Shown here: positions 1-63,470 of the stretch, in pieces | Layout of the letters: each line of letters opens with the position of its first letter | How positions within the stretch are numbered: the first letter of the stretch is position 1 | Origin: Amoebidium appalachense | Lineage: Eukaryota > Protista > Ichthyosporea | Direction of reading: 5' to 3' | NCBI GenBank assembly: GCA_963693365.1 | Contig: CAVNZM010000008.1 | Location: 8,126,818 to 8,190,817 of the forward strand | Length of the DNA stretch: 64,000 bases | Made by a program: the position numbers and the translations under genes | Notes under the pieces: generated by a model | Database searches by the model: none | Told to the model about the DNA's origin: nothing | Seen by the model: only the letters and a program-made list of their open reading frames with translations

Positions 1-873
1 GCCTAGATATCATAGTATGGGGCCCCGGGGGAGGGAGAGGTGGGGGGGGAGGGGGGAGGATCCACGGGAAAGACCTTTAGGTGCATGTTCTTATTTATAC
101 CCCCTTCGAATCATCCCCCCTCTCCCCCCCCCTCCCCCCCCCCTGAGTGCAGGCCGTGACGTAGCTACGATAACCCTGCAGAAGGCAACAAAAATGTATT
201 AATTACTAGCACTATACATGTGTTCATAGTGCAGCTTGCACCACGTATGATCTCAGCAACTTTAAAGTAGTCACAAAGTTTAGTTATTTTCATTATTTTC
301 ATTGCTCTGAACTCTATTACTCTGAAATGATCACCGTGCATGTGCCGCAAGATAACAACCCTATATGTGTGCAGCTGCTGCCTGCAGGTTAGACTCGCTG
401 AAAAGACAATTGTCAGTGTGCATCCGACGCTTGCAGCTGCAGCTAGCCTCTGCAACATTAATACTTGCCAAGTGAATGCTCTTACACTTGATCATCATTC
501 ACTCAAAAAACCGAGGACCGACAGATTAAATATTAATGTCGATCCGAATGATCAGCAAGTGTCTATGCGTACTACTATATATACACACACGTAAAATGCG
601 AAGCTATCAGTTACAAGGCACACCTGCTGCACTGGCACACATACACATACACACCGGCAGATCGATGCTGTCAAAATTTACTTTCATGTACTTCGTAGGT
701 CCGACACAGGTGCACATGAACACGTACATATGTACAAGCCGCGCACACACCACACCACACATACACACACACACACACACACTCACACACACACACGCAC
801 ACACGCACACACGCACACACGCACACACGCACGCACGCACGCACACACACACACACACGCACGCACGCGCGCG

Positions 874-935
<62 letters not shown>

Positions 936-1368
936 GACACACACACACACACACACATCACTGGGTGCGCTCGCTGGGGATTAGTTTTTTGGCACGCTGT
1001 TGACTTTATCGTGTGTTTATTATTTGCTATTTATTGGCCAGCGGCCAACATTTAAAAATATACTATATACCTAAAAATAGATACTGACTACGGCCAGCAG
1101 ACATTATACACCTTCCAGGACACATTAACACCAATAGTCTAACACACCATACTCTCGATCACAAAGAATTCCTAACAAACAGAGAAAAGTGCAAAGGCTC
1201 TGTACTATTACTCAGATTCTAAATTTTAATTCTTTACAGTAAACTTCGGAATGAAAGCTAGCCCCCCCCCCCCCCCCCTCCCCCCCTAACATGACTGTAC
1301 GAAGAACAGGTATAACTTGAAGCACTACAACACATATGAGATCCGTTACATTGGTGTACATTCCAATA

Positions 1369-3157
1369 TTAGACACTAGTTTGGCTACTCTGACTACTCT
1401 GAGATCCTGATTGGCTGCCTGCAGACTTGCGGCCACGATTACTTTGCTTTCGATCGTGCCATTGCAGCTGCGTCTCTCCAGCAGGTGGCAACGCCAGGCC
1501 CAGCACAGCAGATGCACGAGAAGGGGGTGGGAACTGCCCACCAGCCGAGGGCTGGCCCACATGGCCCAAGTAAGGATGGGGACCGTGCTGCGGCAGTAGC
1601 CCAGGCATGGGGAAGGCAGGGCCGGGCTGAGGCGGCATGATGCCCCACGGTGGGGGCCAGCCATGTGGGTGGTGCGGGCCTGGATGGGGTGCAGGGGGCA
1701 TGTGCGGCACATGGCCCTGCTGCATGTCAAGCGCGGGTGCTGGTGGCATGGCATCCTGATTGGCTGCAACCCAACGTGGGCAGCTCTTGGCCCGATTGGA
1801 GCCGGGGCAGCCCTTGCCCTGGCGGCCACACGTCTTGCAGGTCTTGGGGGCTCTCTGGGGTGGCTGCATAGGAGGGGGCACCGGCAAATCCATCTGCAGG
1901 GGCCCCTCAGGGCCAATGTTGCGATGCTTTTTGCCCACTAGCATGGGCAAGGGCCGCTCACGCTGCGCCCCTGCATCGACACCGTCTGGAACAGGGAGGG
2001 GTGGCAAGGGGGCAGGCCGTATGGTTGCTGGCACAGCGTCTGCCCTCTCCTCGCGCATACGCTTGCGGTGATCTGCCAGGCCCTCGTGTGTGGAGCGCTG
2101 TGCATGTGCCGTCTGCCAGGTCTTCCACTTGTCGAAATGCTTCTTGATGTAGGCCGCATCCTTCATGTAGATTCCCCCAGCCACAGAGGCAGCCTTGTTG
2201 AAGTCTTGGGCCAAAGCCTCGAACAGCTGGCCGTTGGGCTTTGCATGTGCCTTGTAGGTGCCCAGGAGCAGCGTGCTGAATAGCTTGCGCTCCTGAGGGG
2301 TAAGCACCGGAAGGAAGGGGATGGCCACATGTTGCTTCTGCGCCAGGAACTTGTAGTCGCCCCTCAGTGCAGGGTCCGGCTGTGGTGCACCACGCGCCAC
2401 CTGGTTGCCCCCCCCCATGGCAGCACCGTCACCCTCCTCGACCTCACAGTCCTCTGGCCCGCCCATCACGCCATTGGCTGCAGGCTCGATGTTATCAGAC
2501 GGAGGTGGGGGTGCGGGCACCGCAACTGGCTCCTGCGCCGGGGCATTGGCCACACAGGAGAGCGGGGCAAAGTTGAAGTACTCCTCCGGTAGCTTGTAGC
2601 AGCCTACGGGTACCCACTGGGGGTCGAGGTGATGGCCGTACAGCATCAGCGCCAGTGCCTCCATGTCGTCAACAATCCAGGGGCTGTAGTGGGGGGGCCC
2701 CGATGCCTGGCCCAGGCGGTTGCGGTAGTGTGCACGCAGGTTGTGGCGGTGGCGCCTATTGGACATGGTGGCGTCCAGCAGGCGCAGCGACATGCGTGTG
2801 GCCCCAAAGTGGGTGGCCAGGGGGTTGTGCACTGCCCCCTCCACCTCGTTGGTGCCCCGGATGCAGCGGTAGCGCATGAGCCCATCTGCGTCGGCAGTGG
2901 TCTCGTAGTAGAGGGGCAGGCCGGGGGGGTCCGACAGACAGCCATTTTGGGCGTGTTCGAGCAGCGACTGTGGGGGCACAAGCAAACATCAGAGAGATGG
3001 GTGGGTGGTGGTGGTGGTAGTGTGTGTGTATGTGTGTGTGTGTGTGTGTGTGGGGTGGGGGGGGGGGGGGGGGGGGGGGGGGGGATGGGGTTGCTAAGGA
3101 AAAAAACGAGCAGGGAAAGGCAAAAAACAACTGGCTAGGCAGCAAGGGCCGTGCGGG

Positions 3158-3229
<72 letters not shown>

Positions 3230-3233
3230 ATGT

Positions 3234-3275
<42 letters not shown>

Positions 3276-3817
3276 GGCTAGGGTGTGCGTGTGTGTGCAG
3301 ATGAACCAAGGATGACAAATAAGCGAAGAATCTTTTCTGTGGTGGTGGAGTTGTTGGGCGCCTGCAGGGGGGAGGGGGGGGGGGGGATGTTGCCTCGAGT
3401 CTTTCAAAGCCATCCTTCTTGAACAGAGGCTTGCCATCCGGTCCGGGCGGCACATCCTTGTAGGTGTTTTTGAACTCCACCAGCCGCGAGACCAGCGTGT
3501 ATGGGTCGGGAATAACCCGCCGGATGCGCTCCATGAAGTAGCTCAGGTCGCCGCCCTTGAGCTCGGTTTCAATGTCGATGCCCTTCTGCTCCAGCACCCC
3601 CTGTGAGGCAGGATGCCAATATTAATTTACTACGCACACTGCAATTTGGGTTTGGTAGACTTTGATACCTGCCGTTATTGTAGGACCCCTCCCCTCCACC
3701 CCCCCCATCTTCTCCCCCAACACAAGTAAAAAATGCATGTGGCTATTTCCCCCCACAACCCTACATTATTTCTCTCTAGGCATATGAATAACCCCCACTC
3801 TCCTCCCCCCCCCCCCC

Positions 3818-3861
<44 letters not shown>

Positions 3862-4911
3862 TTGCCCCCCCTCTCTCTGAGGCTCAGGCTCTCTCTCTTC
3901 CCTCAGAAGTTTTGTCGAAGGTGTGCATGGTTGTGGGTGGAATGGTGAGTGTGTGCTAACGAGTGTATGTGTGTGTGCGCGTCAGTCACGCATGTTGTTG
4001 TTGCCGTTTTTTTTATTTTTATTTTTTATTTTTTATTTTGGGGGGGGGGGGGAGGGGGGGGGGGGCACCTTCACATGTCCGTAATCCTCTTCATTCCACA
4101 CAAATATTGCCTCGCTGAGTGCGCGTGCGTACTCAGCCCTGCGGGGGTGTGACTTGTACGTGCCGTCCGCCGTGTTTGCAATGGAGTGGAAGGCGTCATT
4201 CAGCACAGTCTGCCACACCACCTCCCCAGGCGGTGCCTGGCCCAACATGCCCTCTCTGGGAGCTGCCTCGGGTCCCCCTGGGGCTGCCTCAAGGCCCCCC
4301 GGGGCTGCCTGGGGGTCCTGGGGGGGTGCCTGTGGGCCGGCAAGGGGTTGCTGCTGCTCGGCAGGGGGAGGACTGGCAGGGGGAGGGGCTGGGTCAGGGA
4401 CCACCGGCACCTCGGCACCTGGGTCCGGTGGGGGCTGAATGGGCCGTAGCCACTGCAGGTGCACCATCAGCTCAAAGGGCGGCGGGCCCAGCTCTCCCAG
4501 GGTCTTGCCCTTGTCGGGGCCAAAGGGCACCTGCATGGCCGGCGACAGCACCTGATCCACCCGCACCACTGCATGCTTCTTGCCCACCTTCATGCCCCCC
4601 CAGCGCTCCGGCTGCACAGCCAGCACCACCCCGGTGGCTGCTGCAGCATGTGGGCCCCGCCGGGGCACAATCTCAACCCCTTCACCGAGTGCCTTTGCAT
4701 GAAGCCGCGCTGCATGTCATAGAGGGAAGCAAAAAACTCAGCCAAAAAGCCACAGCACCAACGTTTTTCTCTTCGCTCCACAAAAATCAAATGCATATTC
4801 CTTAGCAACCCCCTTCCCCCCCCCCCCCCCCCCCCCCTTCTCCCTCCCCCCCCCCCCCCCTCTCCCAGTGCCCAGCTTGTGTGGCACTTGCACGTGTTAA
4901 CAGTGCTATAG

Positions 4912-4943
<32 letters not shown>

Positions 4944-6561
4944 ACCACCACCACCACCACCACCAATCACCCCCTCCTTTGATAGCCACCCGACACCCAG
5001 CATAACACAACTGGAACACTGGCCCATGTGGTCAGCCACCCCCCCCCCCCCCCCCCCCCCCCTCCCCTCCCCCTCCCCCTCTCCCTCTGGGGGGCCCACA
5101 ATCTTTCTATATCTGGCATAAGCACATAAGCACTGGGGCAAAAAGCAGGTGGGATACACACCTGACAGGTTTGGCCTATCGACCACGGCCGAGTAGACCT
5201 GCAGGGACGCATATGCATCAAGGGCAGCGTAGGTGGCCTGCACCTCTGATAGCGGCTCGTGCCAGTTGGAGCATCGAACAAGTGCCGGCTTGGGCAGCTT
5301 CTTGCCTATGACCTGGGCAGTGATGTCGGCCAAGCCCCGGGCCGCAGAGGTGATAGCTGCACGGGCATAGCAGAACCGGCCCAGCTCCAGATAGCTGGCC
5401 ACAGGGGTGCCGTAGTCCTTGTTGAGGTGGGCCGAGTCCGTGCCGATCTGCTTGCCCACCTTGATGATGCTGGGGTCCCTAAGCAGCGCAATCAGCTCGT
5501 CCACCAGCCGCGCGGGCGGGCTGTGGTTGGGGCCCATGCGTGCCAAGTGGAAGATGTACACGGCCCGTGCGGTGGCAATCTGCAGCGTGCAAACCTTGGA
5601 CCGCGCCTGGCCCACCCGATAGACCCACTCGCAGTCCAGCCCCACCACGCGGTGCTGCTGCCCCTCCAGGTCGGCACGAATGGCCGCTGTAGCCACCACC
5701 GCCCCCTGGCAGTCGGTGTACACCGGCTTAGGGTAGTTGGCCGGCAGCTCCAGCCCAGGCAGACCGTCCGTCACGCTTACCAGCGCAGCCTCGTTCAGAC
5801 GGACGGGGCATTTTGGCCGGGCTAGGGTTGGAAACATGCGCTCAACAAACGCCCGGTCTTGGCAGCACCGATCTGTGTAGAAGAAGGCCGGGCCCTTGCT
5901 GTTGAGCGCCGCCGTGGTGGCAGAGATGCGCTGGATCACGGGCTCAATCTCCTGGTGGCTGCAGTCCCGTGTAAATACCTGCGCCCGGATCTCTGGGGTG
6001 CCGCACTGTGTGAGAGGGCATCTCCGAGCAGCCATGCATGTTCTAGCTTCCCTTACCACATGGCCCTTCACGAGACTTCAGTGCCCACACAATCCTTTCC
6101 CCCTCCCTCCCCCCAAACCCATGTGCCCACATACTTTCCCCTCCCTCTCCCCCAAAACCCTTCCCCCTCCTTCCCCCCAAACCCATGTGCCCACATACTT
6201 TCCCCAGGCCTCCCTTTCCCCCAAAATCTTCCCCCCCCCCCTCCCCCTAAACCCATGTACCTACAATCCTTCCCCCTTCCTCCCCCTAAACCCTTGTGAT
6301 CACAATCCTTTCCCCCCTCTCTGCCTTCCCCCCAAACCCATGTGCCCACGATCCTTCCCCACTCCCCCTCCCCCCAAACCATGGGACAGCCCTCCATATG
6401 GCACCTACTGTCCCCCCCCCCCCCCCCCCCCCCCACCCCACCCCGGGCCTCTTGCCCTCTCTACCTTCAACCCCGACGGTGGTGTCTCTCCCCCCCCCCC
6501 CCCCCCCCCCTGCATCCCTTGCAATCACTGGCCCCTACTCCCATTCTGCTTGGCAGAAGCT

Positions 6562-6624
<63 letters not shown>

Positions 6625-6858
6625 ATTCCCCGCCAAAAGAAAGCTCCACCCCAGCCCACCCCAATCTCTACCCAGCAAAAACACATACACACATATCTGG
6701 AGCTTCCTAGTTTTTGCTCGACAGGGCAAGAATTGTCCCCAAAACCCACATACTACAAACCTCTACTCACAGTGTGCCACCTCATTAAATGTGGAGCCTA
6801 AGAGATTTAAAGGCCCTAGAGGGGGGAGGGGGGGGGGAGGGGGGGGGGAGGGGGGCGT

Positions 6859-6889
<31 letters not shown>

Positions 6890-7329
6890 GGGGGGGGGGG
6901 TGTGTGGGGGGGGGGGGGGGAGGGGGGGAGAGGGGGCCTGGGGGAGAGTGGGGGGAGGGGGGAGAAGAGGAGGGACCACACACCGCCAAGCTCGTTTACA
7001 CAAGTCCATAGGCCTCGGTACAGAGGCTCCCCATTGATGCCGGTGAGCTTCCCAATTTGGAAGGTGTGGTCGGCCTTGAGCACGTTGTTTACGGGCTTGA
7101 GCTGCGTGTCCAGGCTCTGGTACTTTGCCGTGCGGTCGCTGAACTCAGTATACACGGCACTCAGGTATTTGCCTGAACCCCAAGTACTGTTAGAACTCCA
7201 CCACCCTCCCATCAGGACCATCCCCCCCATTCCCTCTAGTCCCTCGTGTTCATCTCACCTCTCTGTATTTTCGTAAGTCTGTATGGCTTTTCCCATCTCA
7301 AAAACGCTACACACCCATCTCCGGCCGTT

Positions 7330-7384
<55 letters not shown>

Positions 7385-7561
7385 CCCCGCCTCCCGGCGC
7401 GCGCAAACCCTCCAAGTCATTGCACCAACTTTCACCTTCTTTCCCCTTTGTGCCCCATCTGCAGTTTGTCCCCTGCACGTCCGTTTGCCCTTCCCCCCAC
7501 ACCCTCCTGCCACTACTATAATAACCATTAAGTACCGCCACCAAGATCCAGTCTACCACCA

Positions 7562-7613
<52 letters not shown>

Positions 7614-7763
7614 CTCTCCACCTCCTTTCCCCCAACACACACAGACACACATGCGCACACCCACCATCTAATTTCAGGCATAACAGTTCTCCACGATTTC
7701 CCAAGCACACTCACTGGTACATGGACCGTTATGCTTTCACCCCTCTGATGATCCCTCTGCCCC

Positions 7764-7808
<45 letters not shown>

Positions 7809-7879
7809 ACCACCACCACCACCACCACCACCATGACTGATTGCCACCACCACCACCTAATCCATCACCATGTCCCCCC

Positions 7880-7914
<35 letters not shown>

Positions 7915-9335
7915 ACCCCCCCCCCCCCCCACACACACACACACGGACCCACAAGTACACGCACACTCACAGGCGCACATCCACCACCACACATCCACCA
8001 CCACCATAATAGAAACTTATTGACCACACTTCCAAAACCCATTTCCAAGTCCCCCCCCCCCCCCTAAAAAAAAAAATAAAAAATAATAAAACAAAACCCT
8101 ACCAAGCCAACCCAAAAAATGCCCAAGCACGTGCATACAAAACAATGGGGACCATTTACACACCCAAAATGCAGTGCACACTTGCCTGAAGGCACATGTC
8201 CAGCGTAACCATTTTTGTCACCAAACGCCGAGAACTTAGCCGCCTGCTCCTCTGGGGGAAGTTCTGTCAGGCGCTGGTCGTGGGGGCGGAAATCGTTACG
8301 CTTTTTGAGTTCATACTTGGTCCAATGCAGCGCCCTCGAGTAATACAGGAGCCGCTGCTCGTCGTATCGCTGCTTGTGGAGCTCCGAGAGGAGGGTGGCA
8401 AAGGCGTTTGGGCCCACACCTTTGTCTGCCAGTGCACGCAACAATGTTACCACCTTTAGGTCGAGCCCACTGCGGTGGCTAAGGTAGGCCGGAAACTGAT
8501 CACGCATGAAGAGTGGAAGGCGTTTAATTGTCTGGGGGTTTGTGCCGGCAAAGTTTTTTTTGCATGTGTCACAAAAGTACCGGGCCGTGATAATGTAGTA
8601 GCAGCTGTCAAAGTCGATAACACGCCGTCCTACGGGGTTGCTCATGAACCCATTGCGAGAAGTACGGTGTGGGTTGGGGTGGTTGTGGGGGTCCACGTAG
8701 TGATCATCGAAGGGGCACGGCACCATGAAACCGGGAGACAACCTTTCCGGAAGCCAGGCAAAACATCTGGGTTTGTAGAAAGGCGCTGGATCGCCCCCAA
8801 ATTTAAAGCCTATAATGGGAGGTGGAAGATGCCACCCCACAGGCGTCTTCTCATCTTTGAGACTCTCTTTCACTGTGTGCAGGTGCGACTTGATTGTTTC
8901 GCCCGCCGCGTCAGAAAACTCCTCTCCACCGTCATCCCCGTCCGTATTATCTTCTCCCTCTTCCTCCCCTTCATCCTCGTCTACCCGGTACGCATCTGCT
9001 GCTGCATTTAGCAAAGGTTCCTCGTCGGGTTGCACCTGTATGTCTGGTGGGTGTGGAGCAGGGGCCCGATCCATTTCTCTTGGTAACGAATGGACGCTAC
9101 CTGCCTCAACTACACGGGCCCTTATGTCGGCGGCCTTAGATAGAGGGGGCTGTTCGGGTTGTACGTTTACGTTTAGTTCCTGCAAAACAGCTTTGTTTGC
9201 CGTCCCAAAACCTGCAAAGTTCGCTAAAGGCTGAACAAATGCAGCATCTTTTTTTTTGCGCCCAGCTCCCTCCCTAGCTCCGCCTGTTTTATGCCCAGGG
9301 CGCTGTGTTGTGCCCTTAGGGCAGCCTGGCTTCAT
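1369..9335 (-). CDS. Spliced DDE transposase-like protein (DUF6729-type, Mutator/ISL3-like DxxH core) with an embedded DEDDy 3'-5' exonuclease, ~1538 aa
   Basis: Hand-built exons: 9335-8186, 7172-6984, 5992-5162, 4709-4069, 3600-3394, 2967-1369. Total 4617 nt in one open frame; introns 1 and 5 are GC-AG, the rest GT-AG. Motifs in order: AT-hook-like GGAREGAGRKKK; Cys/His region VPCPFDDH...YFCDTC and FPAYLSHRSGLD; LKADHTF (D1); FFYTDRCCQD (D2); exonuclease VGLDCEW / VGKQIGTD / SNWHEPLS...YAALDA; VLNDAFH (DxxH); GCLSDPPG; RGTNEVEGAVH (E); C-terminal CKTC..C..C knuckle and a Pro/His-rich tail. Confidence 0.85.
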
Positions 9336-10356
9336 TTTAAACACTTGGGGCCTGGCCCCCTGCCCCCCTAGTGCGACTACGTTACCGCAAACATTCCCGT
9401 ATTCCAGTGTGCTCGGCAATGCTGCTCATGGCCTTCCCGGACTGGTTGTGACCAGTAAAGAGCGCGCCAATTGGCCCGGGTACCATATCAGGAGCGGGCA
9501 ATTTTTGAATTCTCCCTCCCCGGCCCCGCCGGGGAAAATTTGAGGTTTTTGGACCTCAAAGAAGTCAAATCCTGCAAAATCCACTACCGGGAGGCCAAAA
9601 AGGGTGATTTTACAAAAAAGGAGGGACATACATGAAAAAGAGAAAATGGGCGAGTTCAGTGGGCTGCCGATAAGTATATTTCGTGCTGGGCCGGTATACA
9701 TGCTGCCGTGGTTGTTGCTGTAGACGGCAGTATGGCATCGCATGTGTCACGTGACCTGCACGTGAATGCGACCATGTGCAGGCACTGAGTCTAGGGGGAT
9801 TTGTATGTGTGTTTTGGAGCACCGACAAGGCAGAGCCAGGGTGAGGGATGTGTAAACATGGAGTTTAGGGAGATCGTGCTGCTATTGTAACATGTGCACA
9901 AAACAGCCACGTGCACCGGCACACTCCGGTGTACAGAACAATAATATGCACATGCGTCACTGTAATATCATGTATGCGCATGCCGCACAAGGTTTAGGAG
10001 ACCACCACAGTATATACTATTTTCTTTTGGTTGATATCCATGTAGGAATGGTGTGTTGCAGTTGTCATGATCAGCCTGAGGCAGGCACGTGCACTCACTG
10101 AATCACTAGAACTCATGAATAAAAAATACATTCGCTAAAAACGGCAAGGTAAATTTGGGGCCAAGCTATTATTTCCCCCTTTTAAACGTTTTTTTAGCTC
10201 CAAGAACTTCGACGCCAAAATTTCTATATTTGGCCATCGTATATGATAATGAACACGTGTACTTAAATTAAAGTAGTTATATAAATATGAGCGGCCCGTT
10301 ACAAATACAGTGACGAAAAACAGTGACCCACGAGCAGTTTTTCTTTCTATCCCCCC

Positions 10357-10387
<31 letters not shown>

Positions 10388-10846
10388 ACACACACACCAG
10401 ACACACACACCACCACCACGGTGACCACCACCACCACCACCACCACCACTCACCCCTTAAAAAAACCACACACATACGTGCACGTGTACACACACACACA
10501 GAACACCACCACCACCTCCACTGGACCCCATTTCCTCGTTGTTTTCTTAAGCCTTCAGACCAGTCCTGCACACTGGAGTTAAACAATTGAATTCACCTAG
10601 GCTGACATGCATCCACCCCCGCCTTCCACTTCCCTCCCCCCCCACCCCCTCCCCCCACCCCCCCACCCCCACCCCCTCCCCCTCGATGAAGAAGGGCCCC
10701 CGTAAGCCTTGGGGGGGGGGGGGGGAGGGGGGGGAGGGGAGGGGGGAAGGGGGAGCTCTTGAGCCTCCGGGTAGGGAAGTGGGGTCCGGGGATCCGGAGA
10801 GGAGGGGGGGGGGGGGGGGGGGGGGGAGAGGGGCATATAATATTGG

Positions 10847-11718
10847 GCCTAGATATCATAGTATGGGGCCCCGGGGGAGGGAGAGGTGGGGGGGGGAGGG
10901 GGGGAGGATCCACGGGAAAGACCTTTAGGTGCATGTTCTTATTTATACCCCCTTCGAATCATCCCCCTCTCCCCCCCCCTCCCCCCCCTGAGTGCAGGCC
11001 GTGACGTAGCTACGATAACCCTGCAGAAGGCAACAAAAATGTATTAATTACTAGCACTATACATGTGTTCATAGTGCAGCTTGCACCACGTATGATCTCA
11101 GCAACTTTAAAGTAGTCACAAAGTTTAGTTATTTTCATTATTTTCATTGCTCTGAACTCTATTACTCTGAAATGATCACCGTGCATGTGCCGCAAGATAA
11201 CAACCCTATATGTGTGCAGCTGCTGCCTGCAGGTTAGACTCGCTGAAAAGACAATTGTCAGTGTGCATCCGACGCTTGCAGCTGCAGCTAGCCTCTGCAA
11301 CATTAATACTTGCCAAGTGAATGCTCTTACACTTGATCATCATTCACTCAAAAAACCGAGGACCGACAGATTAAATATTAATGTCGATCCGAATGATCAG
11401 CAAGTGTCTATGCGTACTACTATATATACACACACGTAAAATGCGAAGCTATCAGTTACAAGGCACACCTGCTGCACTGGCACACATACACATACACACC
11501 GGCAGATCGATGCTGTCAAAATTTACTTTCATGTACTTCGTAGGTCCGACACAGGTGCACATGAACACGTACATATGTACAAGCCGCGCACACACCACAC
11601 CACACATACACACACACACACACTCACTCACACACACACACGCACACACGCACACACGCACACACGCACACACGCACGCACGCACGCACACACACACACA
11701 CACGCACGCACGCGCGCG

Positions 11719-11786
<68 letters not shown>

Positions 11787-12113
11787 GACACACACACACA
11801 CACACACATCACTGGGTGCGCTCGCTGGGGATTAGTTTTTTGGCACGCTGTTGACTTTATCGTGTGTTTATTATTTGCTATTTATTGGCCAGCGGCCAAC
11901 ATTTAAAAATATACTATATACCTAAAAATAGATACTGACTACGGCCAGCAGACATTATACACCTTCCAGGACACATTAACACCAATAGTCTAACACACCA
12001 TACTCTCGATCACAAAGAATTCCTAACAAACAGAGAAAAGTGCAAAGGCTCTGTACTATTACTCAGATTCTAAATTTTAATTCTTTACAGTAAACTTCGG
12101 AATGAAAGCTAGC

Positions 12114-12145
<32 letters not shown>

Positions 12146-12682
12146 CCCCCTAACATGACTGTACGAAGAACAGGTATAACTTGAAGCACTACAACACATA
12201 TGAGATCCGTTACATTGGTGTACATTCCAATATTAGACACTAGTTTGGCTACTCTGACTACTCTGAGATCCTGATTGGCTGCCTGCAGACTTGCGGCCAC
12301 GATTACTTTGCTTTCGATCGTGCCATTGCAGCTGCGTCTCTCCAGCAGGTGGCAACGCCAGGCCCAGCACAGCAGATGCACGAGAAGGGGGTGGGAACTG
12401 CCCACCAGCCGAGGGCTGGCCCACATGGCCCAAGTAAGGATGGGGACCGTGCTGCGGCAGTAGCCCAGGCATGGGGAAGGCAGGGCCGGGCTGAGGCGGC
12501 ATGATGCCCCACGGTGGGGGCCAGCCATGTGGGTGGTGCGGGCCTGGATGGGGTGCAGGGGGCATGTGCGGCACATGGCCCTGCTGCATGTCAAGCGCGG
12601 GTGCTGGTGGCATGGCATCCTGATTGGCTGCAACCCAACGTGGGCAGCTCTTGGCCCGATTGGAGCCGGGGCAGCCCTTGCC
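10847..12682. repeat. Direct copy of window bases 1-1818
   Basis: Identical ORF pairs at a constant offset (165..458 vs 11010..11303; 340..594 vs 11185..11439). Identity stops abruptly after GCAGCCCTTGCC at 12682. Confidence 0.97.
12233..12682 (-). pseudogene. 5'-truncated copy of the last ~150 codons of the transposase-exonuclease gene
   Basis: Encodes GKGCPGSNRAKSCPRW...SQSSQTSV*. An in-frame stop lies two codons beyond the breakpoint. Confidence 0.85.
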
Positions 12683-13348
12683 TTCTCTCTAGTAGTAGCT
12701 CCTGGCATGCCGCACCCCCCAGAACACGCTTGGGCGCCCTTTGTTATCTTCTTCTCTCAACCTTCTAGCTCACCCGGAACCGTCGTTACTTGTTATCAGA
12801 AGTAAACATACAAAATGGAGTGCAGTGGAAATTTTAGGTCAATTTTCCTCGTGTGTGGCATGGAAGAAGAACCGAACGAGCGTTGGCGCTCCAAAGAGCG
12901 AAGACATCTTTTGCACGATTTAGTGTGCATCGATAGGAGGAGTGGATCTTAGACTCTGGAAAGTTTGCCTGTCAAGCAACTAACGAAGCAAGCAACTTTG
13001 TTTTAAAATCCAAAAACGAAAGGAATAAAGAGGAAGTAAGAGGGAAATAGGAGACGTTCTCTGTTAGATCCGTAGCTGAAGCGAAGCATACATTTGAATA
13101 GCGCTACAGGATTCGAGGAAAGTTGACAGTTGTGGAAGGCAGAAATCCCATTCTTCACCCAAACAGATTCCCCCATATTTCACCTTTACGACATCTCACC
13201 AAAAAGCCATCATTCGCTCACAATTGACCGTCACGCTTACACCCGCACATTCATTTTATAAGCTTTCTCTCATTTTGCTCCTTAAAGGTCTAGACTTCGT
13301 TAGCTTCCTTGTTTTTCTGTTTCGTCCAAAGGCTTTCGACTGGATAGA

Positions 13349-13873
13349 ATGGTAACATCAAGCAAAAAGGCACTTGGCAGCGGGGATTCCGTGCTGAATT
13401 CCAGCAGCCAGGTACTTTTCTCAGCGAAGAATGGGCACAGTGCCTACACATGTCGCTGCTCCTACAGCCTGGAAACTGGTGACCACATCTGCTGCATCTA
13501 CGACGGAAGGAACGAGTTTTTCGAAATCCTGGCCGATTACATCAAGAAGGGGGTGGAGCAAAACCACATGGTATTACGCCCTTCACTCTCTCCACATATC
13601 CTTATACCATCTCTTTGAACCCACCCACCCAACCATCCACCTATTATGACAATCATGCAATTCCTTCTTGAGTTCCATTCCGAAGACCCTTGGGGGGTTG
13701 TGTCCATATTTTCAAATTTCACAGGCATTTAGGGTGCAAGAGAGAAAGGCGTTTCCTAATGTACTAGTATGCAAAATGATGATCTGAGAGGGGTCTGAGA
13801 GAAGGGAGCAGAGTAGGGGGAACTTCACATTGAAACTGGTTGACTGATTTTCTTTTATTCTTTTTTTTTTTTT

Positions 13874-13904
<31 letters not shown>

Positions 13905-14540
13905 GGGGGGAAAGGGGGGGGGGGGGGGGGGGGGCACTTGCAATTATTTGCCTGGAAGGAAAGAAGTACAGATGGAACATTGATGCTACGAATTTTTTTG
14001 TGAACCCCCCCCCCCCCCCCCCCCCCCCAGCCCCCGTGCGCCTCCCGCCTGCCGTTGAACCCCTGTTCAGGTTCATATTCAGCAATTCTTGCAGTCTCTT
14101 CATTTACAAGCTCGCTTCACTTGGCTCGTAACCCACCCGTTCGCTGTCCTAGCACCCCTGTCTGTTTTAATGTTCAACCATTTTTTTTTTGTGCTGTAGT
14201 CAACCTAATCAATCAATCTAAACAATATTTGTTTATCCACGTTATGAGTGGTGTGTTATTACGCATATCTGCCCTCTTTTCCCTCCTCCTCCTCCTCCTC
14301 CTCCTCATTCCTCTTCTTGTCTCTCTTCAACTTTTTGCAGATCGTTTACTTCCCCTTCACCTATTCGGCCTGTGAAACGTCGAGCACTCTGCGTTCGCTG
14401 GGTTGCAACGTGGAAGAGATGGTAGCAAAGGGGCAGCTGGTGATGATGGATGAGACGGGCAGCTCTTGTGTGACAGAGGGGCAAGTGGACTGGCAGAAAG
14501 CGCTCTGGTGCGTTGCTGGATGACTTTTTGATTACTGTGT

Positions 14541-14620
<80 letters not shown>

Positions 14621-15007
14621 TATGTGTGTGTGTGTTTGTGTATGTATACGATGCTTTGTTCCCGTTCTCCGCCTGTCTCCCCCCCCCCCCCCAAAATAAA
14701 ATAAAATAAGATAAAATAAAATAAAAGAGAGAGAGAGAGGGATGAGAGAGAGAAAGAGAGAGGGTGTATGAGTGAAAGGGATGCGGGGAGAAAGAGACAG
14801 AGAAGGGGGGAAGAGAGCAGGGAGTGTGTGTGTGTGCACGTGTGCGAGAGGGGGAGAGAGAGAGAGGCCGATGTACAAACGCCAACACCCAAGCGCACAC
14901 GCACACACTATGAGAGAGCGAGAGAGAGAGAGGGAGAGGGAGAAAGAGAGAGAGAAAGAGAGAAGAGAAAGAGAAACAGACAGACAGACAGAGAAAGAGA
15001 GAGAGAG

Positions 15008-15051
<44 letters not shown>

Positions 15052-16374
15052 TGTGTGTGTGACCGACACCAAGACAAAGACACACACGCGCAATATTTGC
15101 TTCTCTTCCTCCCACACAAACATCCTCATATCTCTATCTGTGTGTGTTTGTGTGTGTTTGTGCGCGCATGTGCGTGCCAGACACAGTGGGGGAGTAAGGC
15201 TTTGAAATTTTGAGGATTAGGTCATTTGAGGGGATAGTTGTTAAAAATGAGCTTTTTGTAGGATTAAGACGGAGGTGGAAAGGCGGGCAGCAGCAGAGGG
15301 CTATGGGGCGGTGAGACTGGCCGTGGATATGGAATGGACTCGGCAACATTTCAGTGGAAATGGTACCTTTTTTTTTGGGGGGGGGGGGGGGGGGGGGGGG
15401 GAGATGGTGTTTGTGTGTGGGGTGGGGTTGTGGGGGGACGGGTCGGAAAGGGGGGGGGGGGGGGGGGAGGGAGGGACGTGGGGGCGCCGAAGGTGTGTGG
15501 CACTGTGGCATGTAGATGGCGTGGATTGTTAATTTGAGTGAGAGAGGGTTATTTCCTCGTTTTCGTTGACTTCTTATTCTTCTTCTTTTTTCTTCTTTTT
15601 GTTTCTTCTCATTCCCATTCTTCTTACACTCAGTCGTACACTTACTTTTATTATCCTCCATTTTTCTCCTCCTTTTTGGGGGGTTTTTTTTTGGGGGGGG
15701 GGGGGTTCTTTTCCCCATAAAGGTGCTTAATTTCTCTGGCAATGTCTTTCGACTTGAAGTTGTTCGTTCTCTCTTTAATTTCCTTCCCCCCTCCTGCCCC
15801 TACCTCTCTTCTTTGTTTTGATGGTTGCCCAACACTGTCTTCTGATTCATCCTTCCCCCCCCCCCCCCCCCCCCCCCTCCCCTGCCTGCCCGCCCGCTCT
15901 CCCTGAGCCTCCTCTCCCTGAGGATGGACTGCTTACGACACATACTCTTTGTGTGTGCTTTGCAATCTACTTTGTGTTGTCCGTCATGAATGTGTACTTC
16001 ATACTTTGAAACGCATTATACCCCCCCCCCCCCCCCCCCCCCCCCCCCGCCGCCGCCCTTACTTTGTCTTAATTCAGTTTGGCTTTTCATTTTTTTTTTT
16101 TTTTGTTTTTTTTTTCTTCATTTTCATTTTCTTCTTCTTCTTCTTCATCCCCCCCCCCCCCCCCCCCCCCCGGCCCCGCCCTTTCCTCCCTCTCCTAACT
16201 TTCATCCCGTTGCAGGCGGCCCACGTGCGCTGTGTGAGTTTGAATGTCACGTGACCTCAATGTACTTCGCGCCCAACATCAAGTGCATCGACATGTGCAT
16301 GTATGATGCCAACACCTTCGACAGCAGAACTCTTTCGCGGGTGTGCAAGTTTACCAACCCCCCCCTCCTCCCCC

Positions 16375-16421
<47 letters not shown>

Positions 16422-16455
16422 ACGCTGCCCCGCACCCGCCCTGCCCCACCCCACC

Positions 16456-16499
<44 letters not shown>

Positions 16500-16876
16500 G
16501 TGTGATATACACATCCATATATCCATCTGCATACACTTTTTTCTCTAAAGAGCGGAGTTTCATGTGTGTGCGCGCAAACACAAACTCTCAGGCTCACTGA
16601 TTCTGCTTCTGCTGCCGCACGGGTGTTGAGGGTGCACACACATCTCTTCTCGGACTTGAAACAAGCACGTGCGCACACACACACAGACGAAAATGTTGAG
16701 CACGTAGATTATCACCTGCCCTCCCCCTAATTGAGCCGCTACTTTTCAATGGGAATATCCCAAAATAGGCCGCCTTAAGTGGATCGATCTGATTGCCATA
16801 TATGGTATTTTGGTTGTGGGTCCAAAAATGTTTGCCATTCTAACATGGGTACAATTCCGGGTTTTAGAGATCCGAT

Positions 16877-16922
<46 letters not shown>

Positions 16923-17339
16923 AAGTTGGATAGAAATGTTTGCCATTTTAACATGGGTACAATTCCGGGTTTTAAAGACCGAATATATATATATATATAG
17001 ATGTAGATATAAATAAGTTGGATCAGTCCGATCGCCATGAATGCTGATGAGCATCCGGAACTTCGATTGGCCACCATCCTAACATGCACATTTTTTTCAG
17101 GTTCTGGAAACACACCCGCAAGTGTTCGTATGGGGCCAGCTGTACGACAACATATTCTTTGTCCCCCCGGAGGATTTCCTCCAATCAAACGAGGATTTCG
17201 TTTTGCACAAACGCATGGACAATCTGATTCGTCGACGGGAGGTGGAAGCAAAGCTTAGGGAGGGGAGGGAGGAGGCTCTGAGGCTGAAACAACGAGCAGA
17301 GGAGCAGAGGGACTCCAAGTCCACCTTCCTGGCTCAGAT

Positions 17340-17418
<79 letters not shown>

Positions 17419-17632
17419 ATGTGTGCGTGTGCCCCCCCCCCCCCCCCCCTCCCACCTCCCACCTGCAAGCTCACCCCACCCACCCACCTATCATGCTTTG
17501 CCTACTAACGTCTACCCCCTCCCCCCTCCCCCCTTCCAACCCCCCCCCCCCCCCCCCCCCCCACCCCACTCTCCGACCCACCACGTCACGCATTCTGAAC
17601 GTCTACCCTCTCCCCCCCCCCCCCCCCCCCCT

Positions 17633-17671
<39 letters not shown>

Positions 17672-18317
17672 AAAAGAAAGGAAAAGAAAAGAAAGAAAGA
17701 AAGATGCGCATTACGTACATACACTTGAACAACACGCCCCCCCTCCCCCCACGCTCCTTCATGGGGGCGCTTATTCGCCTCCTGTGTAAACTTCTTTTCC
17801 TGCTCTTCCTTCAACCCGTGTGCACCGCGCACTCCCTCCTCCCCCTCCCCCCCTCCCTTCCCCCCCCCCCCCCCCCCCCCCCCCAAAACACGCACGCACG
17901 CACACACACACACACACACAATTTTTTTATTGATTTTCTTTTCTAGATCTGACATTCAGATGCATTCTGATATGTTCTGCTGGCACCCATGCATGATTGT
18001 CGCTAAACAATTTAAATGATCTGCTGGCACCCATCCATGATTGTCGCTAAAGAATTACCTTTTTAACTCTAATGTGTAAACCTCCTTGACTCTACCTGAA
18101 AACACGTTTTTTTTTAAACGTTAAAACACAGTCGCACGAGATCCGCACGCCCATGTCAGGGATTGTGACCGCAGCCGAGATGCTTGCGGCTACCGACCTG
18201 ACCGGTGAGCAGCGGGAGCTGGTCGAACTCATGAAGGTAAAAGTATATATCTTCTAGGGTTTGGCAATGTTCTATTTTTTGTTTTATTTTATATGGTTCT
18301 TCTTTCTTTCTTTCTTT

Positions 18318-18348
<31 letters not shown>

Positions 18349-20838
18349 GGGGGGGAGGCAGAGAGGTGGGGGGTGGGAGTGAAAGTGGGGAGGGAGAGAG
18401 AGAGGGAGAGCGGGACGAACGGAGGGAGATAGAGAGACTCACAATCTAGACTGACGCTGAGAGCACATTACTGATTCGTTCTGCCCTTCTCACCAACCAA
18501 CATGAAATGTGCACGGGGCACCCACACATACACGTACGCTTACACACCTACACAAGCACACATGACTACGTGCACCTACACTTGTGCACCTACACGTGCA
18601 CCCACATGTACACGCACACACACACACACACGAACACGTACCCGCACACATCCACGTTGTATACCCACACCCACACGTGTACACGTACACGCACAGGCCA
18701 GCAGTGGGCAGCTGCTACGAACAGTCAACGAGGTGCTTCTATTCTCAAAGGCCGACTGCAACATGCTTACCCTCGAGCGCAGCCCCATGTGCATGCGCAA
18801 CATCTTTGCTCAGGCACGTGTTCAGCTCCCCCCCCCCCCCCCCCCCTCCCCCTTCCCCTCCCCGCCTTCCTCTCTTTCTCCCCCTGCCCCCTTTCCTCCA
18901 CCTCCCTCTGCACCCCTCCCTCCCCCCCCCCCCCTCTCCGCAGAGGCTCGTCTTTGCTCCTTCGAGGGAACACGCTTTCAGATTTCCGATATTCCTATTA
19001 ATTTTTAGGCTTTAGGTCTGGCTTTGCTTTTTTTTTTTTTTTTTTTTTTTTTTGGGAGTCTTTTTCAGATCTCACTTTCGTGTTTATAGTCTTTTATACC
19101 TCACATTTCTTTTTACATCTATAGTGACGACGTTTTTGGTTTTCTTTAGCAGATATTTGAGCCGGGTTCTCGAGGTTGTCCAGTTAGGGAACGTTAGCCA
19201 GAACCATTAGTCGCTCATCATTATAATTTAAGCACACACACCTCACCGTAGGGGGGGGGCCGGCCAACTCGGCCTTCCTCCGCAACGGGGGCATTTGGTT
19301 GGCTAGGCCGGGGCCGGGGTTACGTAAGGCGGCGGGGGCCGGGAGGGCCAGAACACGATACAAGGTTTGGGGGGAGCTTGGCGTAGGGACTTACGTAAGG
19401 TGGTAAGGCGGCGGTAGGCCAGGGGAAGACCACGATACAGGAAAAATAGGGTTGAGGAAATTTGTTAGGCGAATAGGGTCGCGCGGTTGTGAAGGTTACA
19501 CTAATGACTGTGTTAGTGGAGGACCAATCGGAATGTTTGTTTGTTTGAATTTCAGAAAGTGGCCTCGTGAGTCGTTTAGTGAACCAGTCGGAGGGCCTGG
19601 TTGTGAGAGTTAGCTAATGAGCGTTAATTATACCTCTGGCTTGCAGAACGGAACGAAATGATTCGATGGGCTGTTTGCATTGCATGGTTGGATGGAGGTT
19701 ACGAAATCATAGCGGCGATGGGGAGACGGTATAAAAGAGGAGAACACGATATATTGTTGGTCAGTTCGTGACGCAGCGGGATATAGAGCGCAGAGCAGAC
19801 GAAAACTGTATCACGGTTTTTTTAAAAAAAAAAAAAGTCAAATTGTGTAGTGGTAAAAGAACGATTTTATGGCTGATTCAAACATTAGTTTTGTAAATTG
19901 TTCTTGATGTTTGTGAAATAGGGATTTAAGCTACATAGCTTGCGTTTTTTCCTTAGAAAGGCTGTGTTGTCAGTGTTAGCTATAGCAGAGGTGTGGCTCA
20001 TTGAGGTACGATTGAATCGCTTTTTGAAGGTTTGCGAATATCGGCGGCAAGTGATGGAAGTGCGAGCTGATGGCGCTTCAGTTTTACACTGGTCGGGGCC
20101 GGAATCGGATCCTTGACAGGTGCAGTGTGGGTCAAAAAGACGTAGGGCTACCTTTCGTAAAAACGGTTTTTTGCAGTTTCCTTATATGGCTAATCTGATC
20201 GAACCGGATTCGATCTGGACCAATCATAAATACCCCTTGGCAGAGTTTTCTCGTTACGACACGTAGGGCTACCTACACCCCTTCGTAAAAACGATTATTT
20301 TTGAAATTCCTTATATGGCTAATCTGATCGAACCGGATTCGATCTGGACTAATGGCAAATACACCTTCACAGAGTTTTCCCGTACGAAACGTAGGGCCCC
20401 CTTTCCGTCACGCACTCTTTTGCAAAGTAAATCCAACACACGGTTTATAGTTCCCAACCACCACTTCATACCTGCTCCGCAACGAACTTAATAACTTAAA
20501 GATAAGATTTAAAAAATCTTTAACACATTTCCGCCACCGCAGGCCGAGCAGGCGTACCGGCAGGCAGCCAAAGATGCTCACGTGACCCTTTCCTTCGATG
20601 TCAACGACAATGCCGTCTGCTGGGTGTTGGGCGATTGCACAAACTTGCTACACGTATTTGTCCCCCCCCCCCCCCCCCCCCAGCCTTTTAACCCCATCCC
20701 CACATTGCCACTCCCAACCAAAACACCCCTCAACCTCTCCCCCTCAACACCTCTTCCTTCATCCCTTTCTTCTCTCGCTCTCTTCTCTTTCTGCATTTCA
20801 ACCCAATCCCCACCCTGGCCATCCCATTCAAAAGCCCC

Positions 20839-21280: not shown

Positions 21281-23496
21281 TTACATATATGATATATATA
21301 CACACTATAATAATAACAATAATAATAATAAAATAATACACAGGTGGTCGGCACGTTGGTGTCGTATTTCATTTCCCGCACACGCCAAGGCGAGAACATC
21401 TCAGTCACGTGCAAGAGGGAGGAGCCCCCAGCCGGTGGGGATGACGTCACACTTCAATTCACGTTTGCGGACAGCATAGAAATGAAGGATGGGGAGTTCG
21501 ATGGCTTCTGGAAGGTATTTATCCCCCCCCCCCCCCCCCCCCCCCCCCCTTGTTATATCGAATTAACGAAATAAATTGAACCAAAAAAAAAAAAAAAAAA
21601 AGATGGATTAATGTGATGTATCAGTGTTAAGGCAAACACAAATTACCGTCACCGCTGCCACCACCGTTACTCCCCCCCCCTCCCTTCCCCTTCCGTTCTA
21701 TGGCACTTCTTAATCCCCACTCTATATTTTTTAGTCGGCACTCACATATGGTCAGACATTGAAAACGCACCAGTAATCAACAAGTAGGAAAAGGCTATCA
21801 TGACGGACCCTTATCACACAATAGTAGATACGACAGTTTTTGGGGGGCCTTCCCCAGGGGGGGGGGGGGGGGGGTGCTTGATGCAATTGCTGCTTTGGGC
21901 AAATAGCGATGAGGAGCAACGTGTGTGTGCTTGGATAGGGGACGTGGGAGAGAGGGGGGGGAGGGGGGGGTTGGCGCGGAAAAAGGGCCGGGGGAAGGGG
22001 GGGGAAGGGGGGAGGGGCAGAAGACGACATATCGTCTGACACTATGCTTAATTTTTGACATCTAATAACTGCAGACGGACGTCAGCACGATTTCCAAATA
22101 TGGGCATACTGGGCTGGGACTCGCCATCTGCGCCCGACTTGTCGGTCTTATGGGCGGAAAAATCTGGGTCACTCCGGAAACACCTTCCCCGGGTGTCGGC
22201 ACGCAAATTCATTTCACCATCGTGGTTGCGAAAGTGCAAAACGAAAAGGTGAAAGCGGGGCGCAAAGAGGGAAGGCGCGCGAGAAGAGGCAAGAGAGTGG
22301 CTGGTGGCCCGTCTATGCTGTGCGAGAATTCTGACTTGGACCCAATGAGACGTAAGCATTAAGAATTATGAATGGTAGTTCACCACCCTGTTGCAAGGGT
22401 TTTCGATCGCGCAATCGGGTGTGGTCGGGATCAATGATTCACTGCCGAGAAAAAAATGGTGGGGTTTTTTGTTCGTTTGGTCTAAGGTGTTCCCCTCACT
22501 TTTTTTTTTTTTTTTTTTTTTCACTTTTTTTTTTTTGGTCACCCTTTCCAAAGCCCCTTTCCAAATACCACCTCCCTATCACCTTTCCCCCTTATCCCCT
22601 CTCCTGTCAATCTTATCCAAATCCTTCCCCCCTTTGTCCTTTCCATATCCCTCTCTCTTTTTGTCCTTTTCCAAGTCCTCCCCTCAAACTACCCTATTCT
22701 ACATCCCCCTCTCCTTGCGGTGTTATCACCCCTTTTCCAGAATTATTCCTTTCACTCCTCATCCGATGACCCCCTCCCCCCCCCTCTCCCCCGAGGGGAA
22801 TAGGTCGAAACTCGGGTACTGTGGATGACGTGGGCCCCCCCTGAGGATGGGCTCTGCTTATTATGCATACTCTTTATGTATGGCTTGCATTCTGCATCGT
22901 GTTATCCGTTTGTTCTTGTGTACTTCGTACTTTTTGACGCATTCAAACCCCCCCCCCCCCCCCCCCCAACGAGGGGAATAGGTCGAAACTCGGGTACTGT
23001 GGATGACGTGGGCCCCCCCTGAGGATGGGCTCTGCTTATTATGCATACTCTTTATGTATGGCTTGCATTCTGCATCGTGTTATCCGTTTGTTCTTGTGTA
23101 CTTCGTACTTTTTGACGCATTCAAACCCCCCCCCCCCCCCCCCAACCTCTGCTTCCCTGCTATTCACCCCCATCGACATTAACTAGGAGCAAATAAATAG
23201 ACTGGTTTTTCAAGCCTCTCCCCCCCCCCCCCCCCCCCCCCCCGGATGAGACACGCAGAGAAAGAGAGAAAGGGGAGACAGCGAGGAGGGTTGGGGGGGG
23301 GGGGGGGGGGAGGGAGGGGGGAGAGGAGATGGAAGCCGGGGAGAGGGAGAGGGAGAGAGAAGAAGGGAAATTGACAGAAAAAGAAAATTGCAAGAAAAAG
23401 GATCCCGCCCCACGTAAGCCTCTAAATCTTACCCCTCCATCCCCCATTCCCGATTCCACACTTCTCACCTACACCCACCCACCCATCCCCGTGTCC

Positions 23497-32743: not shown

Positions 32744-32776
<33 letters not shown>

Positions 32777-41110: not shown

Positions 41111-44451
<3,341 letters not shown>

Positions 44452-45845: not shown

Positions 45846-63470
<17,625 letters not shown>

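What the first reader, a model, noticed from the sequence alone, without database searches (positions are those of the whole stretch)
1369..9335. DDE transposase with an intact WRN/EXD2-type 3'-5' exonuclease inserted inside its catalytic core
Seen: six exons splice into one uninterrupted ~1538 aa frame. The putative second Asp (FFYTDRCCQD) and the DxxH motif (VLNDAFH) are separated by a complete DEDDy domain (LDCEW, IGTD, YAALDA), a short beta-rich segment and a Pro-rich linker. Established: D...D...(C/D)xxH...TNxxE is the IS256/Mutator/ISL3-type signature, and in these families DxxH normally follows the second Asp closely. Inference: an autonomous, intron-containing transposon that carries its own end-processing nuclease, which could trim excised ends, repair the donor site or help form circles. 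Similar DUF6729-plus-exonuclease proteins are, as far as I recall, annotated only as uncharacterised.
Basis: partly seen in the sequence, partly recalled or inferred. Interest (0 to 1): 0.85.

Follow-up and report, generated by a model that had tools for sequence, protein, structure and literature searches.

The report
Intact Dada transposon with built-in exonuclease
This is an intact, spliced, repeated jumping gene of the protist Amoebidium whose cut-and-join enzyme carries a nuclease module that likely trims DNA ends, a design already described in 2013 for the Dada superfamily, so it is a new member of a known kind.

Summary
Six exons splice to a 1538-aa protein identical to a transcript-derived Amoebidium protein. 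A WRN/EXD2-type DEDDy exonuclease with all catalytic residues sits between the second Asp (D487) and DxxH (D895/H898). The flanking core folds like the IS256-family transposase ISCth4 (Z 13.0). The design is not new: Kojima and Jurka 2013 (PMC3706591) described exactly this insert in Dada-1_LB, Dada-2_LB and Dada-1_ES, and this scan found it before on other DNA. Added here: public contigs give the ends (9473 and 12720; GG...CC, no true TIR, a 10-of-12 sub-terminal inverted repeat), an intact length of about 11.0 kb, many different flanks and about 100-fold depth over the host flank. No small-RNA target is seen, unlike the target-specific Dada families. The window copy is a composite: a full-ORF copy lacking 143 bp of its 5' region, joined to the 3' part of a second copy. 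The exonuclease's job is untested; it is probably accessory, since one fungal clade and a fish relative lack it.

The parts
8186..9335 (-). Exon 1: start codon, low-complexity N-terminus, DUF6729 domain with zinc-finger-like Cys residues (C207, C255, C258); GC splice donor
6984..7172 (-). Exon 2: first catalytic Asp D418 (codon 7071-7069)
   Evidence: D in 60 of 61 aligned relatives with a residue there
5162..5992 (-). Exon 3: second catalytic Asp D487 (codon 5873-5871) followed by the exonuclease
   Evidence: 72 of 74
5187..5666 (-). DEDDy 3'-5' exonuclease domain, WRN/EXD2 type (D566, E568, D632, Y701, D705)
   Evidence: WRN exonuclease Z 26.4, rmsd 1.8, 183 aligned
4069..4709 (-). Exon 4: beta-rich domain, Pro-rich linker, DxxH motif D895/H898 (codons 4197-4186)
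   Evidence: (64 of 64 and 63 of 63)
3394..3600 (-). Exon 5: helical insertion domain; GC splice donor
1369..2967 (-). Exon 6: catalytic Glu E1049 (codon 2841-2839), C-terminal Cys4 cluster (C1383, C1386, C1393, C1402), stop codon
   Evidence: 61 of 64
1..9472 (-). Copy A of the element: full ORF; its downstream end lies before the window start; lacks 143 bp of the 5' region found in other copies
9473..12682 (-). Copy B: downstream (left) terminus at 9473 plus the 3' part of the element; 10847-12682 repeats 1-1818 at 98.6%, with one substitution and otherwise only repeat-length differences
12681..12720 (-). Last 40 bp of the upstream (right) terminus, joined to copy B through a 2-bp microhomology; host DNA follows at 12721
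   Evidence: contigs of X6, X8, X12 stop here; four different flanks in X11
9484..9495 (+). Sub-terminal inverted repeat, left arm (positions 12-23 from the end)
   Evidence: 10 of 12 matches in register
12698..12709 (-). Sub-terminal inverted repeat, right arm (positions 12-23 from the end)

Best explanation
This is a repeated, transcribed DNA transposon of about 11 kb of the exonuclease-bearing Dada kind, whose DDE transposase likely binds the short inverted repeats near both ends, cuts the element out and inserts it at varied sites, while the inserted DEDDy exonuclease is predicted to be an accessory module that trims 3' DNA ends made during transposition. Shown: gene structure, transcript, motif order, both folds in a predicted model, the two ends, varied flanks, deleted derivatives. 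Inferred: catalysis by D418/D487/E1049, end binding, recent activity, and the substrate of the exonuclease. I think the flanking donor ends or stalled intermediates are the likelier substrate than the element's own 3'-OH, which strand transfer needs (established DDE chemistry, own knowledge). The window locus most simply arose when one copy inserted 183 bp inside the 5' end of another and one deletion then removed most of the newcomer together with 143 bp of the resident's 5' region.
For: Architecture equals the published one: a DEDDy exonuclease between the second D and DxxH in Dada-1_LB, Dada-2_LB, Dada-1_ES (exonuclease alignment). D418-D487 spacing is 69, against 68 in Dada-U6_DR. The model of P0001 matches ISCth4 transposase across the insert (Z 13.0, rmsd 4.1, 250 aligned, model range 11-726). 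A fish DUF6729 relative without the insert aligns D361/D430/D457/H460/E623 to D418/D487/D895/H898/E1049 and its model ranks ISCth4 first, then integrases (Z 13.2). Ends: 7 of 18 shown loose-end rows lie before 9468-9480 with at least six different flanks; 4 of 11 rows lie behind 12710-12727 with four different flanks. One 1556-letter contig of X6 appears in both calls and links exon 1 to 12681-12720. In X11 the host flank has depth 18, exon 1 about 1960 or more. An X6 contig joins 10098 to sequence of intron 1 near 7390, an internally deleted derivative. Introns, length and lack of true TIRs fit the 2013 description.
Against: No named Dada protein could be aligned by program: the paper's protein file is not readable here, so the link rests on architecture, spacing and a comparison by eye. 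No tRNA or snRNA lies at the window's ends, nor in 60 of 60 related loci scanned for tRNA or 16 of 16 scanned against Rfam; split genes can escape both programs and most loci are too short to hold the ends. No target-site duplication can be read. The C-terminal finger is Cys4, not CCHC. Contig depth is not a copy number. Convergence of the three acidic residues was not measured, as no coordinates are returned. Six of 18 relatives found with a C-terminal query have lost the DEDDy residues yet keep DxxH and E, so the nuclease is not needed in every lineage, if those copies still move.
Confidence: 0.88

Rival explanations
1. Same transposon, but the exonuclease works on RNA or stray nucleic acid rather than on transposition ends, for example degrading small RNAs or intermediates that would trigger host silencing.
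For: The closest folds after WRN include RNase D and Nibbler/MUT-7 exoribonucleases (Z 20.3, 20.2). The domain is dispensable in one fungal clade and absent in the fish relative. The host methylates transposons (PMC11244446, abstract and passages).
Against: WRN, a DNA exonuclease (own knowledge), stands clearly first by sequence and fold. The domain is fixed inside the catalytic core, next to where DNA ends are held.
Confidence: 0.15
2. The element moves through a joined-end circle (copy-out/paste-in, as IS256-family elements do), and the exonuclease processes the junction; the A-B tandem would then be a by-product.
For: The nearest solved transposase is ISCth4, a copy-out/paste-in enzyme (abstract start of PMC7780238). 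Tandem Dada copies without spacer and flank replacement are reported.
Against: No end-to-end junction was seen among the shown loose ends. The A-B junction lies 183 bp inside A's end, not at it. A shared fold does not fix the pathway.
Confidence: 0.2
3. It is a target-specific Dada whose small-RNA target was missed, the window copy being an off-target or rearranged insertion.
For: All Dada elements with defined ends in the 2013 paper lie in small RNA genes, some with a non-target flank on one side. One X11 flank shares its first 7 bases with the window's right flank. Copy A's other flank is outside the window.
Against: At least six left and five right flanks differ from one another, and by eye none shows the published target words beside the end; the window flank has no tRNA or snRNA.
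Confidence: 0.2
4. It is a domesticated, immobile host gene derived from a transposon.
For: Intact, spliced and expressed; a domesticated Dada exists in carps.
Against: Catalytic residues intact, two partial copies in the window, defined ends, varied flanks, deleted derivatives, depth far above the host flank.
Confidence: 0.02

Closest known systems
Exonuclease-bearing Dada families Dada-1_LB, Dada-2_LB (Laccaria bicolor) and Dada-1_ES / Dada-1_Ec32 (Ectocarpus); Kojima and Jurka 2013, PMC3706591; supplement table of PMC12477816
   Same: DDE triad with DxxH; DEDDy exonuclease with all catalytic residues between the second D and DxxH; introns; similar D-D spacing.
   Different: Host is an ichthyosporean, not listed in the 2013 table (the nearest host there is the choanoflagellate Monosiga). 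Here both ends, an expressed full-length protein and many flanks are seen, whereas Dada-1_Ec32 is listed as incomplete with unknown TSD and the 2013 text names no target for these three families.
Target-specific Dada families (Dada-U6, -U1, -5S, tRNA-targeting; PMC3706591, PMC8869645)
   Same: No true terminal inverted repeats but short sub-terminal ones at equal distance from the ends; one end starting with GG or AGG; internally deleted derivatives; tandem copies; length near 11 kb.
   Different: No small-RNA target seen; an exonuclease insert that the fish relative lacks; C-terminal Cys4 in place of CCHC.
IS256/MuDR-type transposases, structure ISCth4 (6xg8)
   Same: RNase H-like core with a helical insertion domain after the DxxH strand; Z 13.0 over 250 residues.
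   Different: 13% identity; no exonuclease; whether the pathway (copy-out/paste-in) is shared is unknown.
KolobokD (PMC9587614, passages)
   Same: A C/DxxH-type DDE transposon that encodes a DnaQ-like 3'-5' exonuclease, proposed to degrade intermediates.
   Different: Its nuclease is DEDDh (TREX/ERI1-like), and the passages read do not place it inside the catalytic core.

Membership tests
Exonuclease-bearing Dada group (Dada-1_LB, Dada-2_LB, Dada-1_ES) | DDE triad with DxxH after the second D, RNase H-like fold | tested here: met
   D418, D487, D895/H898, E1049 conserved; ISCth4 match spanning them
Exonuclease-bearing Dada group (Dada-1_LB, Dada-2_LB, Dada-1_ES) | DEDDy exonuclease with all catalytic residues between the second D and DxxH | tested here: met
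   against the text
Exonuclease-bearing Dada group (Dada-1_LB, Dada-2_LB, Dada-1_ES) | Intron-containing transposase gene | tested here: met
   five introns, transcript-confirmed
Exonuclease-bearing Dada group (Dada-1_LB, Dada-2_LB, Dada-1_ES) | Computed homology to the named Repbase proteins | not testable with these tools
   Dataset S1 is not readable; the exonuclease rows of Fig. S1 resemble agaric relatives such as P0012 by eye only
Dada superfamily, general | N-terminal CCCC zinc finger | tested here: inconclusive
   C207, C255, C258 align with three of the fish relative's four Cys; the second ligand may be a His (H212 or nearby)
Dada superfamily, general | No terminal inverted repeats, short sub-terminal inverted repeats at equal distance from the ends | tested here: met
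   10 of 12 matches at positions 12-23; 819 of 200000 random in-register pairs reach this
Dada superfamily, general | 6-7 bp target-site duplication | not testable with these tools
   The paired left flank of the composite lies before the window start; no duplication between 9472 and 12721, as expected for a nested end
Target-specific Dada families (U6, U1, 5S, tRNA) | Insertion at a fixed site in a multicopy small RNA gene | tested here: not met
   No tRNA or snRNA at the window's ends; flanks differ among contigs
Target-specific Dada families (U6, U1, 5S, tRNA) | C-terminal CCHC finger as in Dada-U6_DR | tested here: not met
   A Cys4 cluster stands at that place (C1383, C1386, C1393, C1402)

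The most novel reading that the evidence does not exclude
The exonuclease-bearing elements are a separate lineage that has no small-RNA target, inserts at varied sites and uses its nuclease as part of the reaction; the Amoebidium family, intact, expressed and at high copy in a culturable relative of animals, would be the first member with both ends defined in the papers searched and a ready system to test what a nuclease inside a DDE core does.
Probability: 0.55. Interest if true: 0.4.

Novelty: new member of a known kind. Interest (0 to 1): 0.22.

Why it matters
The odd architecture has been in print since 2013, so the finding itself is not a surprise. Its use is practical: the role of the exonuclease was only guessed in the papers read, and the published exonuclease-bearing families are incomplete or lack defined targets. 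An intact, transcribed, high-copy family with mapped ends in a culturable protist makes that guess testable, and suggests that small-RNA targeting is not general in the superfamily. It also shows that Pfam DUF6729 very likely marks Dada transposases.

Tried and rejected
No whole genome is held for this window, so copies and empty sites could not be counted directly. The run search listed no holder on record as RNA; X1 and X5 were judged RNA from a spliced junction. A search with residues 380-1320 returned only the protein itself, a limit of the word index. KDZ/Plavaka and a recalled name 'Sagan' were considered first and dropped: the TET/JBP transposon paper has no exonuclease passage and the Sagan search found nothing relevant. 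All 142 Rfam matches in 1-20000 are below their gathering scores and come from poly-G/C or microsatellite runs. An independent MITE at 9473 was considered and rejected: it has no matching inverted end near 10098, and its partner repeat lies at the element's other end. A 5'-truncated retro-copy or Helitron reading of copy B was dropped when the 40 bp after 12682 proved to be the element's other end. One published target hexamer (TGGCGC, of nine tried) lies 3 bp from the left end; about 0.3 such hits are expected by chance (own arithmetic). The tree does not place the Amoebidium protein (support 85/77, open node; one row of 43 dropped for length; fish branch long). Hermes and P-element transposases score lower than ISCth4 against the fish model (Z 8.8, 9.2). 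Paper searches: DUF6729 0 papers; Dada with Amoebidium 0 papers; Repbase Reports and subscription journals are not searched, so an entry there cannot be excluded.
Full report
Observation. The gene lies on the minus strand. Exons 9335-8186, 7172-6984, 5992-5162, 4709-4069, 3600-3394 and 2967-1369 join to 1538 codons without a stop. Introns are 1013, 991, 452, 468 and 426 bp; the first and fifth begin with GC. A search with part of exon 6 found a 100% match in EukProt; its cluster holds 18 members, of which 15 were listed, labelled Amoebidium parasiticum transcript isoforms. One of them, P0026, is identical to the spliced product over its whole length; others show a 5-residue deletion or alternative splicing.

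Domains. Pfam finds DUF6729 in exon 1 and DNA_pol_A_exo1 in exon 3; the PDB sequence search gives WRN, EXD2 and MUT-7 exonucleases (6 distinct sequences). In an alignment of P0001 with 79 relatives, chosen from the hits for matching more than the exonuclease, the conserved acidic positions are D418 (60 of 61 rows with a residue), D487 (72 of 74), D895 (64 of 64), H898 (63 of 63) and E1049 (61 of 64); the exonuclease residues D566, E568, D632, Y701 and D705 are kept in 71 of 77, 71 of 74, 76 of 79, 73 of 73 and 73 of 73. Most rows were found with an exonuclease query, so the second set of figures is biased upward. Among 18 of the 20 relatives found with the C-terminal query, 10 keep all five residues, one has D to E, one is truncated and six have lost the site while keeping DxxH and E; four of those six that entered the tree fall in one supported agaric clade.

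Structure. P0001 (residues 383-1538 of the protein, less five, behind 18 other residues) was folded with the 80-row alignment: mean pLDDT 71.6, pTM 0.57. The order of elements is three strands, helix, strand (ending at D487), helix, then the exonuclease, a beta-rich domain and a disordered linker, then the fifth strand with DxxH, a helical domain and the helix bearing E1049. The wide structural search ranks WRN exonuclease first (Z 26.4) and gives ISCth4, an IS256-family transposase, Z 13.0 with 250 residues aligned over model range 11-726, that is on both sides of the insert. As a natural control without the insert, a fish DUF6729 protein (P0188) was folded; it ranks ISCth4 first, then retroviral integrases, and its five signature residues align with ours. 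Distances between the acidic residues were not measured.

What is known. [quoted passage not shown] That is this finding. Kojima 2022 (PMC8869645; parts 1-3 of 5 read; first part of the supplement) covers fish families and their small-RNA targets. A supplement row of PMC12477816 lists Dada-1_Ec32 as incomplete, TSD unknown, with a WRN-like exonuclease within the integrase domain. PMC9587614 (passages) describes a DEDDh nuclease in KolobokD. PMC11244446 (passages) reports transposon methylation in Amoebidium; the passages shown do not treat this element. Searches for DUF6729 and for Dada with Amoebidium returned no paper. After I had reached this reading, the scan's notes showed seven earlier Dada reports on other genomes, six of them with the exonuclease.

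Ends and mobility. Window 1-1818 is repeated at 10847-12682 (98.6%; one substitution, otherwise repeat-length changes). Contigs of four runs laid on 8100-10300 show two things at 9472/9473: in X1, X5 and X6 the transposase side continues into one shared sequence that the window lacks, and the sequence starting at 9473 is preceded by different flanks (7 of 18 shown rows; 22 rows not shown). Laid on 12160-13840, contigs of X6, X8 and X12 cover 12681-12720 and stop, coming from another shared sequence, and X11 shows four different flanks behind 12710-12727. A contig of X6 with the same length (1556), depth and strand appears in both calls: letters 1-40 lie on 12720-12681 and letters 184-1556 on 9472-8100; I take it to be one contig. 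So the intact element runs from a left end like 9473 through the gene to a right end like 12720, about 11,029 bp, just above the 4666-10979 bp range of 2013. The ends read GG...CC and share 10 of 12 bases at positions 12-23; 819 of 200000 random pairs do as well, and the 12-mer has only one other such match in the window. In X11 the host flank has contig depth 18 and exon 1 about 1960 or more; in X8 host pieces have 7-8.5, the right end 178 and the 3' part 1475. The tool warns that such depth is no copy number, so this says only that the element is strongly repeated. An X6 contig joining 10098 to intron 1 marks an internally deleted derivative. X1 and X6 may be the source of the window; X5, X11 and X12 come from other studies.

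The window locus. Copy A has the full frame but lacks 143 bp of the 5' region; the spliced contig of X1 runs 127 letters into that missing stretch, so the transcripts seen come from other copies, and the window copy may have lost its start site (inference). Copy B supplies a second left end and 3.2 kb of the 3' part and is joined to the last 40 bp of the right end. One nested insertion and one deletion explain this. An X11 contig begins 24 bases inside the right end and runs on through the host flank, too short an overlap to count as bridging but in line with the assembly.

Targets. No tRNA lies in the window, no snRNA or tRNA match in 1-20000, none in 60 of the 80 related metagenome loci scanned for tRNA (the other 20 mostly match only the exonuclease) or in 16 scanned against Rfam. 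These tests are weak for split genes, but the variety of flanks points the same way. I therefore file the element with the exonuclease-bearing group that the 2013 paper placed in Dada, and not with the target-specific families.

Mechanism and verdict. Most likely a cut-and-paste element (about 0.7 against a circle pathway) whose exonuclease trims DNA ends as an accessory step. Two of four X11 right-end junctions start 8 and 10 bp inside the end, which would fit nibbling but may be simple divergence. The finding is real, well supported and a new member of a known kind; interest 0.22.

Noticed in passing
window 8181-8189 and 7168-7176: The same 9 bases stand across the donor and the acceptor of intron 1, like a target-site duplication; transcript isoforms also use alternative sites in this intron.
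   Followed up: partly
window 8185 and 3393: Two of five introns use GC donors, both confirmed by the transcript-derived protein.
   Followed up: yes
window 13481-13567 (+): First exon of a host gene with the start of a MEDS sensory domain (E 4.7e-06, just under the Pfam cut-off because only 29 profile positions lie in this exon), about 760 bp beyond the element's right end.
   Followed up: partly
window 12721-12727: One other insertion flank in run X11 shares its first seven bases with the window's right flank; a weak target preference or a longer end in some copies is possible.
   Followed up: no
window 9473-9495: Loose ends at 9480 in X1 and X5 look like a variant left end of the same length, also starting with GG and keeping the sub-terminal repeat: possibly a sister subfamily.
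   Followed up: no
window 51323-51672, 57002-57334, 42207-42553, 32774-32999, 22792-23143: A dispersed repeat of about 330 bp, 94-100% alike, in both orientations, bounded by poly-C runs.
   Followed up: no
window 43272-43536, 52322-52651, 53264-53572, 54581-54753, 58203-58511, 58626-58824: A second dispersed repeat of 150-310 bp, 85-98% alike.
   Followed up: no
proteins P0006, P0007, P0008, P0010, P0011, P0021: Agaric relatives keep an insert of the same length and the DxxH and E residues but have lost the exonuclease active site.
   Followed up: partly
protein P0039: An unnamed 3352-aa record holds three near-identical tandem units of a related transposase with exonuclease, probably a tandem array annotated as one gene.
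   Followed up: no
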